From NCBI GenBank assembly GCA_016187385.1, contig JACPJU010000001.1:204010-268009 (forward strand): a stretch of DNA of 64,000 bases. Direction: 5' to 3'. The position numbers and the translations under genes were made by a program. Under the pieces are notes generated by a model, which saw nothing but the letters and a program-made list of their open reading frames with translations, was not told where the DNA came from and searched no databases. This DNA comes from Candidatus Aenigmatarchaeota archaeon. Lineage in GTDB: Archaea > Aenigmatarchaeota > Aenigmatarchaeia > CG10238-14 > SCSR01. Below, one piece after another: positions 17,344 through 19,225 of this stretch. How positions within the stretch are numbered: the first letter of the stretch is position 1; each line of letters begins with the position of its first letter.

Positions 17344-18011
17344 TCAACCATCACTATCCTCAATCTTCCCATGTTGACATCAGTGTCTGAATATCTTACG
17401 TTGACTGGAAATGAATCGTCCAGAATTGTTGCGGTTTCAAATCCGCATTTCTCCAAAGACAATACCTGCAGACCTTGGGTGAAAATATTTTGAATGTCAT
17501 TCTGGTTGAGTCGTTGCAGGCATGATGTTACCTTTTGCAAGAACATGTTCTCTTCCTCTGTAGCTGGACTGCCCATTGGCGGGTACAATACAGAAAACCA
17601 TCCATTTTCATTTTCGCTGTCTGTAATTAGGATGAAGCTGAACGATTTCGGAAGGGATTTTACATACCCGCATATTCCCGGCTTACCATTGTCGAGCTTG
17701 CAGAAAGCTAGATTGTTTACCTGAAGTTGGGAAAGTGGGAACATTTTTGCGTCTAGCTTTTCTTTGTCGAAAATGCCGCGATGATATGATGCACCGTCGT
17801 AGTAAGTCAGTACATGGTTGGATGCTATAGAATTTGCCAGAATTATCGCATTGTTTTCGAAATCCTTTTCCTCTATCGCTGGAGAAATTTTCCAGAATTC
17901 GGCAGGAGGGACAAAAGCTAATACAGTAGCTATGACACCTGTAATCATCAGCGAGAAAAGTGGTGTTATGTAACTTTCGCCTTTCATCAACATCCTCCCG
18001 TAATCAGACAT
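17340..18011 (-). CDS. Pilin-like hypothetical protein
   Basis: Internal start MKGESYITPLFSLMITGVIATVLAF gives a class III SP-like N-terminus; 4-nt overlaps with both neighbours. Confidence 0.45.
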   Translation of the reverse strand: MSDYGRMLMKGESYITPLFSLMITGVIATVLAFVPPAEFWKISPAIEEKDFENNAIILANSIASNHVLTYYDGASYHRGIFDKEKLDAKMFPLSQLQVNNLAFCKLDNGKPGICGYVKSLPKSFSFILITDSENENGWFSVLYPPMGSPATEEENMFLQKVTSCLQRLNQNDIQNIFTQGLQVLSLEKCGFETATILDDSFPVNVRYSDTDVNMGRLRIVMVE

Positions 18012-19225
18012 TCGTATTGAGAAGTGTCAACAGCCTCGACAAGCTCGACATAATTTATCTGTCCTTGGCTGAGTGCACTACAGTCAGTCGCCCATCCATT
18101 GTGCCAGCGCGCAGAAGCTTTCCAGTATCTGTACTCGTTCCCCGTGCATGGGTAAACATATCCGTATCCTGGATAAGGCTTGTCATAATTGCTTTTAAGG
18201 AACTGTATGCCTATTCTTATGTTGCAGTCCGAGTCGTAAGCGGTTTCGTCATTTACACAACCATAATTCTTGGCCCCTTCTCTAGTAAACCAACTTTCAT
18301 GTATTACATTCAACTGGAATATTCCATAAGAGCCAAGTCCATCTGATTTTATTTTGTCAATGCTGTCTCTTCCGCAATTGTTTGTACCGTCTTTGCAGTG
18401 AGCGATATTAGATATTCTTCCTCCTCCGCTTTCAACAGCGGCTAGTTTAAGTACAAATCTTTGCCCATTCTGATCTAAGCCAAGTTCTTTGGCAATTTGA
18501 ATTATTTTTGCTTGCACATTTCCGACAGGGGGAGGTGGAACAACAACACCAGAAACAGTAAATGCACGTGAAGTAGGACATTCGCTCTGGTCTGCACGGA
18601 AGTATGCCGTATAGTCGTCTGGCGTTCCTGATGACGTGCATGTCCAGCTCCATCCATATTTGTTTCCGTCATTGGTTGGATTATCGCAACATCGTAAGTC
18701 CCTGCAGTTTGAAAAACCTGTACTTGTTATCTGTACGTTCGTGCAGCCTGTATCGGCGGTTGCAGTGACAGTTATATCTGAATTCGGGTTCGATGTCGCC
18801 GGGCTTACATAAAGATTCGACGGAGCTATTCCAGACACGCTAATAATGCTTTTTTCTTCTTCTATCCTTTTTGTTATGGTCAGTGACTTGGCGTTGTCTT
18901 TTGTGAATTCTTGCCCTATGTTGACGAATGACTCGGAGGTGGCTTGCCTGTTGCCAGTCTTAACAACAACATAACCGTCTTTTTTAATCATCACATCATA
19001 TCGGGCATCAGAAGGAAAATTGTAAATTAATTTGGCTTCGTTTGGAGCGTTGTCAGCCATGCTCAGCAGGTTGGCGATTTCCAACGCTTCATTGTTGACT
19101 TTCTGTTCTGTCAAAACTGTTTTCATATCGTTCGCTATCGTGGGAAATATAGCGGCAGCCAGAGATATGTTTATGAGTATAAAACCGAATGTGACTAATG
19201 AATCTGCTTCTACGCTACCCTTCAT
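17987..19225 (-). CDS. Pilin-like protein with lytic transglycosylase (SLT/lysozyme-like) domain
   Basis: N-terminus MKGSVEADSLVTFGFILINISLAAAIF. aa about 235-380 read IIQIAKELGLDQNGQRFVLKLAAVESGGG...SYGIFQLN: the catalytic E-S motif and GLMQ-like motif of SLT family 1. Confidence 0.65.
   Translation of the reverse strand: MKGSVEADSLVTFGFILINISLAAAIFPTIANDMKTVLTEQKVNNEALEIANLLSMADNAPNEAKLIYNFPSDARYDVMIKKDGYVVVKTGNRQATSESFVNIGQEFTKDNAKSLTITKRIEEEKSIISVSGIAPSNLYVSPATSNPNSDITVTATADTGCTNVQITSTGFSNCRDLRCCDNPTNDGNKYGWSWTCTSSGTPDDYTAYFRADQSECPTSRAFTVSGVVVPPPPVGNVQAKIIQIAKELGLDQNGQRFVLKLAAVESGGGRISNIAHCKDGTNNCGRDSIDKIKSDGLGSYGIFQLNVIHESWFTREGAKNYGCVNDETAYDSDCNIRIGIQFLKSNYDKPYPGYGYVYPCTGNEYRYWKASARWHNGWATDCSALSQGQINYVELVEAVDTSQYECLITGGC

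What the first reader, a model, noticed from the sequence alone, without database searches (positions are those of the whole stretch)
17987..19225. Lytic transglycosylase / lysozyme-like catalytic motif in an archaeal pilin-like protein
Residues about 235-305 read IIQIAKELGLDQNGQRFVLKLAAVESGGG...SYGIFQLN. This matches the family-1 SLT pattern: helix, then catalytic Glu-Ser, then G-[LIA]-[MFW]-Q-[IL]. It also matches the G-I-F/L-Q-I-N stretch of C-type lysozymes. The same motif pair recurs in 11093..13738 (CNIESSGNP...GLFQIN). Murein-cleaving folds are unexpected in an archaeon unless aimed at bacteria. The alternative reading is acquisition by horizontal transfer and repurposing for an S-layer glycan.
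Basis: partly seen in the sequence, partly recalled or inferred. Interest (0 to 1): 0.72.

Follow-up and report, generated by a model that had tools for sequence, protein, structure and literature searches.

The report
Pilin-like archaeal protein carrying lysozyme-fold domain
A tiny symbiotic (DPANN) archaeon encodes, inside a pilus-assembly operon, a pilin-like protein whose tail is a real but divergent bacterial-type cell-wall-cutting (lytic transglycosylase/lysozyme-fold) domain, which suggests a pilus machine that presents wall-degrading enzymes, most likely against bacteria.

Summary

The N-terminus (MKG + hydrophobic helix) is class-III-signal-like. The gene lies in an operon with a FlaI/TadA-type ATPase, a TadB/T2SSF-type platform and about ten other pilin-like genes.

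In a syntenic Aenigmarchaeota operon the orthologous scaffold carries an SLT_3 domain instead, and another scaffold carries a strong Amidase_2 domain. Four more distant operons have bare scaffolds.

Best reading: a modular pilin-like carrier of a peptidoglycan-cleaving module, probably aimed at bacteria. Substrate, processing and activity are inferred. This protein uniquely has a Tyr-to-His change and a 6-residue insertion near the active site. Lytic transglycosylases in DPANN archaea are already published, so this is a new variant of a known kind.

The parts
17987..19225 (-). Whole gene: 412-aa tri-modular protein (NCBI: hypothetical protein HYW24_01445, Candidatus Aenigmarchaeota archaeon)
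19136..19225 (-). aa 1-30: class-III-signal-like N-terminus, MKG followed by SVEADSLVTFGFILINISLAAAIF (short basic leader ending in Gly, then a hydrophobic helix)
   Evidence: Sequence reading. The same pattern occurs in about 10 consecutive operon genes. No curated pilin model matches it.
18842..19225 (-). aa 1-128: conserved pilin-like scaffold module. Its homologues are stand-alone 119-140-aa proteins at the same operon position in relatives.
18551..18829 (-). aa 133-225: Cys-rich beta (Ig-like) spacer module, also repeated in the 826-aa neighbour and in large DPANN surface proteins. It is followed by a PPPP linker.
   Evidence: match to the L022 613-aa protein; strands predicted at low confidence
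18002..18520 (-). aa 236-408: GH23/SLT lysozyme-fold domain
18431..18433 (-). Codon of Glu265, the putative catalytic acid (ES motif) at the C-terminal end of a helix
   Evidence: Glu in 34 of 35 homologues
25026..27266 (-). First operon gene: type IV filament ATPase (T2SSE; FlaI/TadA family)
22755..24707 (-). 650-aa polytopic membrane protein, a divergent TadB/T2SSF-type platform
   Evidence: orthologues at 45-67% identity carry PF00482 or 'TadB' names; no direct Pfam hit
19886..22366 (-). 826-aa pilin-like protein with Ig-like repeats and a beta/gamma-crystallin domain
24745..25029 (-). Small (94-aa) Cys-rich pilin-like protein. Paralogues lie at 19552..19842, 19252..19539 and 22407..22616.
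17340..17987 (-). 215-aa pilin-like protein. Its ATG overlaps the target's stop codon (TGATG).
15181..17343 (-). 720-aa pilin-like protein carrying a GH5 glycoside hydrolase domain plus an unassigned insert (aa 122-304)
13739..15184 (-). 481-aa pilin-like last operon gene. Its orthologue in a relative carries an extra Amidase_2 domain.
13262..13738 (+). C-terminal SLT_3-like lysozyme-fold domain of the convergent 881-aa multi-pass membrane protein (gene 11093..13738). This is the finding's second motif pair.

Best explanation
The protein is a modular, pilin-like subunit of an Aenigmarchaeota type IV filament (TFF) system, and it carries a peptidoglycan-cleaving module.

Shown:
- It has three modules: an N-terminal pilin-like scaffold with a class-III-signal-like start, a Cys-rich Ig-like spacer with a PPPP linker, and a C-terminal GH23/SLT lysozyme-fold domain.
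- The SLT domain keeps the Glu-Ser, G-x-x-Q and N-G motifs.
- The gene lies in an operon with a FlaI/TadA-type ATPase, a TadB/T2SSF-type platform and about ten genes with the same kind of N-terminus. One of these carries a GH5 hydrolase.
- The small scaffolds and their gene order are conserved across Aenigmarchaeota, while the enzyme modules differ by lineage. This genome has SLT. A sister genome has SLT_3 on the same scaffold and Amidase_2 on another. Four further relatives have none.

Inferred:
- A prepilin peptidase cuts after MKG.
- The hydrophobic helix takes the protein into, or to the tip of, a filament or short pseudopilus. That holds the catalytic domain outside the cell on its spacer.
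- Glu265 then acts as the general acid and cleaves beta-1,4 MurNAc-GlcNAc bonds of a bacterial partner's or prey's murein, or of wall debris. It would work alongside the other enzyme-bearing subunits.

Whether the reaction is lytic transglycosylation or hydrolysis cannot be told from sequence.
For: Domain identity:
- Exhaustive search and domain mapping.
- 23 of 35 homologous domains hit Pfam SLT, best 1.1e-16; P0037 scores 60.9 bits and P0050 45.8 bits.
- The profile hits MltC at 3.1e-6 and EtgA at 9e-4 with ES aligned.
- A profile search of 5.8 billion proteins returned 94 hits. 93 carry PF01464, and the named ones are DPANN 'lytic transglycosylase domain-containing protein'.
- Every top Foldseek hit in PDB and in viral structures is a lytic transglycosylase.
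- Conservation across homologues: E265 34/35, G301 35/35, Q304 35/35, N335 35/35, N376 33/35, G377 34/35.

TFF context:
- ATPase: T2SSE 61 bits, FlaI model 118 bits.
- Platform orthologues carry PF00482 or TadB names.
- The MKG/MKA + hydrophobic N-terminus occurs in the consecutive operon genes.

Peptidoglycan as target:
- In the syntenic operon L022, the 276-aa orthologue has the same N-domain (E 1.5e-26) plus SLT_3 at 38.5 bits. The orthologue of the last gene has Amidase_2 at 101 bits, E 8.6e-29.

Modularity:
- The orthologues in L023 to L026 are 122-206-aa bare scaffolds.

Wider DPANN pattern:
- SLT proteins of about 280 aa have ..[KR]G|DIPITILVIG.. N-termini.
- They sit in clusters of similarly started genes downstream of a homologue of the platform (E 1e-91). 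In L019 the cluster lies next to a Peptidase_A24 prepilin peptidase.

Literature:
- DPANN lytic transglycosylases proposed to attack bacterial walls (PMC8204110, PMC9723730).
- The modular-pilin concept in bacteria (PMC8179133).
Against: - The protein alone is below the Pfam SLT cut-off. So are its four closest relatives.
- It is the only one of 35 homologues with His in place of the near-invariant Tyr of the (A)YNGW motif. It also has a 6-residue insertion (SGGGRI) directly after the Glu-Ser, so activity may be altered or lost.
- No curated pilin model or solved pilin matches the N-terminal module.
- The full-length AF2 model is poor (pLDDT 38).
- No prepilin peptidase gene is in the window.
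- The Amidase_2 evidence comes from a relative, not from this genome.
- No host, expression or biochemical data exist.
Confidence: 0.6

Rival explanations
1. The architecture is as described, but the lysozyme-fold domain acts on a non-murein glycan. Candidates are chitin or chito-oligosaccharides, another GlcNAc-containing exopolymer, or glycans of an archaeal host's or its own envelope. On this view the operon is a surface 'enzyme rack' for polysaccharide scavenging, analogous to the Sulfolobus bindosome, where class III signal peptides put sugar-binding proteins on the surface.
- A GH5 glycoside hydrolase sits on another pilin-like scaffold in the same operon.
- The ATPase also matches the bindosome ATPase model BasE (E 6.5e-12).
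- The bindosome precedent is published (PMC3047682).
- The Tyr-to-His change and the insertion near the active site could reflect a changed substrate.
Against: - The syntenic operon of a close relative carries a strong Amidase_2 (N-acetylmuramoyl-L-alanine amidase) domain and an SLT_3 domain. That points to murein specifically.
- The best profile and sequence matches are murein lytic transglycosylases (MltC, EtgA).
Confidence: 0.2
2. The domain is catalytically impaired and serves as a glycan-binding adhesin module. It would tether the archaeon or its filament to a partner's wall, as lectin-type modules do on bacterial modular pilins.
For: - This protein uniquely replaces the near-invariant Tyr of the YNG motif with His and has a 6-residue insertion right after the catalytic Glu-Ser.
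- Modular pilins characterised so far are mostly adhesins (PMC8179133).
Against: Glu265, Ser, G301, Q304, N335, N376, G377 and the disulfide cysteines are all retained. The model is confident through the active-site region (pLDDT 90-98). His can substitute for Tyr as a hydrogen-bond donor (own knowledge, not tested).
Confidence: 0.1
3. The domain is a housekeeping 'space-maker' that opens the cell's own wall polymer so that the filament can be assembled. This is what the specialised lytic transglycosylases of bacterial secretion and pilus systems do (EtgA, VirB1-type).
Against: - Four of six orthologous Aenigmarchaeota operons examined (L023 to L026) assemble the same gene set with no lysozyme-fold module. 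The module is therefore dispensable for assembly.
- Archaea of this group are not known to make murein (general knowledge, echoed in PMC8204110).
- No wall-synthesis genes were seen among the window genes scanned, though the window was not annotated exhaustively.
Confidence: 0.06
4. The protein is not a pilin-like protein. It is an ordinary signal-anchored or secreted exo-enzyme, and its place in the operon has no mechanistic meaning.
For: No curated pilin family matches it. No prepilin peptidase is in the window.
Against: - The N-terminal 125-aa module is a conserved family found at the same position of the same ATPase-platform operon in five other genomes.
- About ten consecutive genes share the K-G/A + hydrophobic start.
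- The gene's stop codon overlaps the start codon of the next gene, and the next three genes overlap one another as well.
- In Pacearchaeota-type loci the SLT gene neighbours a Peptidase_A24 gene.
Confidence: 0.04

Closest known systems
Family 1 lytic transglycosylases and GH23 enzymes (E. coli MltC, Slt70, MltE; P. aeruginosa MltF, Slt; goose-type lysozyme)
   Different: - Only 13-18% identity, and the protein alone falls below the Pfam cut-off.
- It has extra disulfide-rich loops (HC-DG-x-CG, D-C-N-I, and invariant cysteines).
- The motif Tyr is replaced by His, and 6 residues are inserted after ES.
- It is fused to an archaeal pilin-like module rather than to a lipobox, superhelical or LysM module.
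- The host organism has no murein of its own.
[quoted passage not shown] 2021, PMC8204110; GH23 in Woesearchaeota, Vigneron et al. 2022, PMC9723730; also PMC10936187)
   Same: It is the same domain family. The nearest relatives of this domain are in 800-1700-aa DPANN proteins. The same biological idea, attack on bacterial walls, is proposed for them.
   Different: - Those papers describe very large extracellular proteins, mainly in Woese- and Pacearchaeota.
- This one is a 412-aa Aenigmarchaeota protein left as 'hypothetical' by NCBI.
- It is built on a pilin-like scaffold inside a type IV filament operon.
- My text searches found no paper that links the two.
Bacterial modular type IV pilins (Streptococcus sanguinis PilB/PilC; Raynaud et al. 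2021, PMC8179133)
   Same: A small pilin module has a functional module grafted onto its C-terminus through a linker. Different modules are swapped onto the same carrier during evolution.
   Different: - The known examples are bacterial, defined by IPR012902, and mostly adhesins.
- Here the carrier is an archaeal-type module with no match to known pilin models.
- The cargo is a wall-degrading enzyme.
- Incorporation into a filament is not shown.
Specialised lytic transglycosylases of bacterial secretion and pilus machines (EtgA of T3SS, VirB1-type)
   Same: An SLT-fold enzyme is encoded within the operon of an envelope-spanning filament machine. EtgA is among the best sequence hits.
   Different: Those enzymes clear the producer's own sacculus and are not pilin fusions. 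Here the module is dispensable in related operons, and the producer lacks murein.
Sulfolobus bindosome (Bas system; PMC3047682)
   Same: Non-filament 'cargo' proteins carry class III signal peptides and depend on a dedicated ATPase and platform pair. The ATPase here also matches the BasE model.
   Different: Bindosome cargo are sugar-binding proteins for ABC transporters, not hydrolases. No ABC transporter is linked to this operon.

Membership tests
Pfam SLT (PF01464) / CAZy GH23 lysozyme-fold superfamily | The protein itself scores above the curated family threshold | tested here: not met
   14.2 bits for the full protein and 16.4 bits for the domain alone, against a cut-off of 21.3.
Pfam SLT (PF01464) / CAZy GH23 lysozyme-fold superfamily | Significant homology to accepted members by profile or transitive search | tested here: met
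   - The target hits P0037 at E 6.9e-6 in a library of 1.84 billion proteins, and P0037 hits SLT at 60.9 bits.
- 23 of 35 homologues hit SLT.
- The profile hits MltC at 3.1e-6.
- 93 of 94 profile hits carry PF01464.
Pfam SLT (PF01464) / CAZy GH23 lysozyme-fold superfamily | Lysozyme-like alpha+beta fold with the substrate groove between the lobes | tested here: met
Pfam SLT (PF01464) / CAZy GH23 lysozyme-fold superfamily | Catalytic Glu (E-S motif) at the C-terminal end of a helix | tested here: met
   E265-S266 are present. Glu is kept in 34 of 35 homologues. It aligns with the ES of MltC and EtgA and lies in helix 33-48 of the model.
Pfam SLT (PF01464) / CAZy GH23 lysozyme-fold superfamily | G-L-M-Q-type hairpin motif | tested here: met
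   GIFQLN at 301-306. G301 and Q304 are invariant, 35 of 35.
Pfam SLT (PF01464) / CAZy GH23 lysozyme-fold superfamily | A-Y-N-x-G motif with its Tyr | tested here: inconclusive
   The target reads R-W-H-N-G-W. N376 and G377 are kept, but Tyr (34 of 35) is His only in this protein. The effect is unknown.
Pfam SLT (PF01464) / CAZy GH23 lysozyme-fold superfamily | Cleaves MurNAc-(beta-1,4)-GlcNAc, giving 1,6-anhydroMurNAc (lytic transglycosylase) or a reducing end (lysozyme) | not testable with these tools
   Needs enzyme assays on sacculi.
C-type lysozyme (GH22, PF00062) | Significant sequence or fold match to GH22 members | tested here: not met
Archaeal type IV pilin-like proteins (class III signal peptide substrates) | Short basic leader ending in Gly or Ala, directly followed by a hydrophobic helix of about 20 residues | tested here: met
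   MKG|SVEADSLVTFGFILINISLAAAIF. This was judged by reading the sequence and by a simple regular expression, not by a validated predictor.
Archaeal type IV pilin-like proteins (class III signal peptide substrates) | Match to a curated pilin or archaellin N-terminal model, or to a solved pilin | tested here: not met
   No Pfam or NCBIfam pilin family matches the protein or its 12 N-domain homologues. There is no PDB pilin hit.
Archaeal type IV pilin-like proteins (class III signal peptide substrates) | Encoded with a TFF ATPase and a platform protein | tested here: met
   ATPase: T2SSE, FlaI and TadA models. Platform: orthologues carry PF00482 or TadB names. The gene order is conserved in five other genomes.
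Archaeal type IV pilin-like proteins (class III signal peptide substrates) | A class III signal peptidase (Peptidase_A24) is available | tested here: inconclusive
   None was found in the 64-kb window, and the rest of the genome was not searched. A Peptidase_A24 gene adjoins the SLT-pilin cluster in the related Pacearchaeota-type locus L019.
Archaeal type IV pilin-like proteins (class III signal peptide substrates) | Pilin fold (long N-terminal helix packed on a beta-sheet) and incorporation into a filament | tested here: inconclusive
   The single-sequence AF2 model shows helix 7-59 followed by three strands, but at pLDDT 38-50. Filament incorporation cannot be tested here.

The most novel reading that the evidence does not exclude
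Some DPANN archaea build a 'lytic pilus'. This would be a type IV filament or pseudopilus whose minor subunits are interchangeable carriers for a peptidoglycan-demolition kit: a GH23/SLT or SLT_3 glycan cutter, an Amidase_2 stem-peptide cutter, and a GH5 glycanase. The archaeon would use it to breach the walls of bacterial hosts or prey. That would be a concrete molecular mechanism for cross-domain archaeon-on-bacterium episymbiosis or predation. The enzyme cassettes appear to be gained and swapped on conserved scaffolds within a single phylum.
Probability: 0.35. Interest if true: 0.8.

Novelty: new variant of a known kind. Interest (0 to 1): 0.55.

Why it matters
How DPANN archaea, which make up roughly half of archaeal diversity and are mostly uncultured, attach to and exploit their partners is largely unknown. 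Whether any of them live on bacteria is an open question.

Published work noted lytic transglycosylase domains in DPANN genomes but offered no delivery mechanism. Three observations here turn a loose annotation into a testable model:

- Such domains sit on pilin-like scaffolds.
- They lie inside a conserved ATPase-platform operon.
- In a sister genome they are accompanied by a murein amidase on another scaffold.

The model makes concrete predictions: which proteins should be on the filament, what they should cleave, and which residue to mutate.

The finding would also extend the 'modular pilin' idea from bacterial adhesins to archaeal enzyme carriers. It gives a clear example of domain accretion and swapping on a fixed scaffold. 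If the domain turns out to be inactive or to have a different substrate, what remains is a useful annotation of a divergent GH23 subfamily.

Tried and rejected
- Single-sequence searches of the target against PDB gave only noise.
- The word-seeded search of 5.8 billion proteins found only the protein itself.
- PHROGs and NCBIfam gave nothing for the target.
- Single-sequence AlphaFold of the full protein was unusable (pLDDT 38).
- The afdb50 library was unavailable.
- BFVD gave phage lytic transglycosylases only at E >= 3e-3, so a recent phage origin is not indicated.
- Direct BLASTP of the two lysozyme-like domains in the window matched only around the GxFQIN hairpin (23.9 bits). They belong to different subfamilies (SLT and SLT_3).
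- PDB phmmer with the 881-aa protein's domain gave a spurious TAL-effector repeat hit.
- I guessed that the insert in the GH5 protein (GRGHTHIQI) is an M23 peptidase. Neither Pfam nor PDB supports this, so I dropped the idea.
- Attempts to tie the N-terminal module to known pilin families failed.
- The platform protein has no direct Pfam or PDB hit. Only its orthologues do.
- The first search for related loci attempt failed because the alignment was too diverse. A 5-sequence alignment worked.
- The sigma-70 promoter and terminator scan is not meaningful for an archaeon, and I ignored it.
- Recent horizontal transfer was considered and rejected. GC content is 0.41-0.43 at the locus against 0.34-0.44 across the window, and the nearest relatives are all DPANN.
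Full report
**Where the window comes from.** The target protein is identical to NCBI 'hypothetical protein HYW24_01445 [Candidatus Aenigmarchaeota archaeon]', on a 786-kb MAG contig. The same locus occurs on contigs from six sequencing runs of one accession series (SRR121133xx-4xx). Topoisomerase VI A and B subunits, a LAGLIDADG ORF and a 99-nt tRNA-His fit an archaeon. GC content is even across the locus.

**Checking the observation.** ORF 17987..19225 (-) encodes 412 aa. 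The quoted motifs are there:
- VES at 264-266, with Glu265 at nt 18431-18433
- GIFQLN at 301-306
- CNIRIG at 334
- RWHNGW at 373

On its own the protein is a borderline case. Pfam SLT scores 14.2 bits (E 0.032) against a cut-off of 21.3. PDB, NCBIfam and PHROGs give nothing. The word-seeded search of 5.8 billion proteins found only the protein itself.

**Homologues.** An exhaustive phmmer search of 1.84 billion cluster representatives found 57 proteins at E<=1e-3. They split the query into three modules:
- aa 1-~128 match stand-alone 119-276-aa proteins that start MK[GAS] followed by a hydrophobic stretch.
- aa ~130-235 match a Cys-rich beta module found in many large surface proteins.
- aa 229-408 match about 35 proteins, mostly 500-1600 aa.

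**The C-terminal domain.** I aligned the 35 C-terminal domains (A1).
- 23 of them hit Pfam SLT (best 1.1e-16) and 6 hit SLT_3.
- For example, P0037 is hit by the target at E 6.9e-6 library-wide and itself scores 60.9 bits on SLT.
- The four closest relatives are, like the target, just below threshold. This is a divergent, disulfide-rich subclade.
- The A1 profile hits solved MltC (3.1e-6, 7.5e-5) and the type III secretion enzyme EtgA (9e-4), with the ES, GxMQ and N-I-x-x-G segments aligned. Hits to C-type lysozymes and Slt70 are only at E 0.03-0.2.
- The same profile against 5.8 billion proteins gave 94 hits. 93 carry PF01464. The few that are named are lytic transglycosylase domain-containing proteins of Pacearchaeota, Nanoarchaeota and Aenigmarchaeota, 'MltC [uncultured archaeon]' and one Patescibacteria protein.

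**Structure.** AlphaFold2 on A1 gave pLDDT 93 and pTM 0.89.
- Foldseek ranked the same families first but weakly.
- Against viral structures, only phage lytic transglycosylases appear, at E >= 3e-3.

**Active-site conservation.**
- Kept: E265 in 34/35, G301 and Q304 in 35/35, N335 in 35/35, N376 in 33/35, G377 in 34/35, and C360 and C382 in 35/35.
- First anomaly unique to the target: His375 stands where 34/35 homologues have the Tyr of the (A)YNGW motif.
- Second anomaly: a 6-residue insertion (SGGGRI) comes right after Glu-Ser.

The fold and family assignment is therefore secure. Catalytic competence is likely but not certain.

**The second motif pair.** The 881-aa protein (11093..13738, +) has SLT_3 at 25.5 bits (E 1.9e-5, cut-off 27). 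The two domains in the window are only distantly alike. The 881-aa protein's domain matches an above-threshold SLT_3 domain in a relative.

**Is the protein pilin-like?** It begins MKG|SVEADSLVTFGFILINISLAAAIF. The minus-strand operon reads as follows:
- ATPase, 25026..27266: T2SSE 61 bits; FlaI 118 bits and TadA 123 bits in NCBIfam
- 94-aa gene
- 650-aa polytopic membrane protein
- gene of about 69 aa
- 826-aa gene
- 96-aa gene
- 95-aa gene
- the 412-aa target
- 215-aa gene
- 720-aa gene carrying GH5
- 481-aa gene

All except the ATPase and the membrane protein start with M(x)K[GA] plus a hydrophobic stretch. Several gene junctions overlap: the target's stop overlaps the next gene's start codon, and the last three genes overlap each other.

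The 650-aa protein has no direct family hit. However, 203 orthologues exist, nearly all of those that carry a name being Aenigmarchaeota. Among the best 120 (45-67% identical), about 18 carry PF00482 (T2SSF) and a few are named TadB.

No curated pilin model or solved pilin matches the N-terminal module. No Peptidase_A24 gene lies in the window. 'Pilin-like' therefore rests on the N-terminal pattern and on strong, conserved context.

**Comparative context.**

*L022 (GCA_016181005.1; platform 67% identical).* The operon is syntenic.
- The target's orthologue by position and N-module (E 1.5e-26) is 276 aa and carries an SLT_3 domain (38.5 bits) instead of the Ig-like plus SLT modules.
- The GH5 protein is conserved.
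- The orthologue of the 481-aa last gene has an added Amidase_2 domain (N-acetylmuramoyl-L-alanine amidase; 101 bits, E 8.6e-29).

*L023, L024, L025, L026.* The same ATPase-platform-scaffold order holds, but the scaffolds are bare.
- The target's counterpart is 122-206 aa.
- In L024 the GH5 protein's counterpart is 145 aa.
- The L024 orthologue of the 881-aa protein lacks the SLT_3 tail.

Enzyme modules have therefore been added to, and exchanged on, conserved scaffolds in one sub-lineage.

*Pacearchaeota-type loci.* Independently, the SLT proteins of about 280 aa mostly begin ..N[KR][KR]G|DIPITILVIG...
- In two long contigs they sit in runs of 6-8 genes with such starts.
- These runs lie downstream of a homologue of the platform (E 1e-91).
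- In L019 the run lies next to a Peptidase_A24 gene.

*Species genomes.* A scan of species genomes found this SLT subclade only in DPANN: five Aenigmatarchaeota, four Woesearchaeota, and two records labelled only 'archaeon' or 'uncultured archaeon'. There it occurs in 800-1700-aa proteins that are not next to filament genes.

**Interpretation.** The best-supported model is a modular pilin-like carrier that presents a GH23 glycan-cleaving module outside the cell.
- Shown: the modules, the fold, the conserved catalytic residues, the operon, and the module swapping.
- Inferred: signal cleavage, filament or tip incorporation, murein as substrate, and a bacterial target.

The murein inference rests on the nearest characterised relatives being murein enzymes, and on the SLT_3 plus Amidase_2 pair in the sister operon. 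It is weakened by three points: GH23 contains a chitinase, a GH5 enzyme shares the operon, and the target has active-site peculiarities.

**Rivals.** Four were weighed:
- another glycan as substrate (0.2)
- a binding-only module (0.1)
- self-directed space-making (0.06; four of six operons lack the module)
- an ordinary exo-enzyme with no filament role (0.04)

**What is known.** Murein-type lytic transglycosylase domains in DPANN are published:
- Rinke 2013 and Castelle 2015, as cited in PMC8204110
- PMC8204110, on large Pace- and Woesearchaeota proteins
- PMC9723730, on GH23 and 'vampiristic' Woesearchaeota
- PMC10936187

Modular pilins are established in bacteria (PMC8179133). Class III signal peptides on non-pilin cargo are known from the Sulfolobus bindosome (PMC3047682). 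A recent survey of archaeal type IV filament systems mentions DPANN systems but, in the passages I searched, no hydrolase or transglycosylase cargo. Text searches combining these themes found nothing. That is an absence within a limited library, not proof of novelty.

**Verdict.** The finding is correct. The protein is a divergent member of a known domain family in a lineage where that family has already been noticed. The apparently new part is the architecture and context: a pilin-like scaffold in a type IV filament operon, with swappable murein-hydrolase cargo. Interest is moderate, 0.55.

Noticed in passing
window 15181..17343 (-), aa ~122-304 of the 720-aa GH5 protein: A poly-Pro-linked, Cys-rich insert (…GRGHTHIQI…) lies between the pilin-like N-module and the GH5 domain. 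It is absent from the L022 orthologue, and in L024 the whole orthologue is only 145 aa. It has no Pfam or PDB match, so my M23-peptidase guess is unsupported.
   Followed up: partly
window 11093..13738 (+); L024 17523..20171: The 881-aa multi-pass membrane protein, convergent with the operon, has a C-terminal SLT_3-like domain. Its 882-aa orthologue in L024 lacks that tail. A third protein at this locus has therefore gained a lysozyme-fold module in this lineage.
   Followed up: partly
L022 18298..20007 (GCA_016181005.1): The pilin-like orthologue of the window's 481-aa protein carries a strong Amidase_2 (murein amidase) domain (101 bits). The window's copy lacks it.
   Followed up: yes
window 19886..22366 (-): The 826-aa pilin-like protein has three or more copies of the same Cys-rich Ig-like module found in the target (aa 130-235). 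It also has a beta/gamma-crystallin domain (26.7 bits). It may be an adhesin.
   Followed up: no
window 24745..25029, 22407..22616, 19552..19842, 19252..19539 (-): Four small (about 69-96 aa) Cys-rich paralogues share an M(M)K-x-AVPYI/IVAIVLG-type start. They are the most plausible major filament subunits.
   Followed up: no
L017 and L019 (Pacearchaeota-type contigs): SLT proteins of about 280 aa with RG|DIPITILVIG N-termini sit in conserved runs of pilin-like genes downstream of a platform homologue. In L019 the run lies next to a Peptidase_A24 gene. Pilin-like SLT proteins may therefore be widespread in DPANN.
   Followed up: partly
window 7713..8446 (+): tRNA-His is 99 nt long, so it probably contains an intron. 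Its 5' end overlaps the end of a 217-aa LAGLIDADG-domain ORF.
   Followed up: no
window 27790..28454 (+): A MazE/PIN-type toxin-antitoxin pair lies just upstream of the operon's ATPase gene (Pfam marks on the identical locus L001).
   Followed up: no
window 8723..9313 (+): A 196-aa protein matches Lit (PF07314), a bacterial lipoprotein intramolecular transacylase (E 5e-11). This is a bacterial-type function in an archaeon.
   Followed up: no
window 1..583 (-): A further ORF with a class-III-like start (MLKGQAKVDEFAWIILGAVGFVLLITLVF) lies near the window edge, away from the operon.
   Followed up: no
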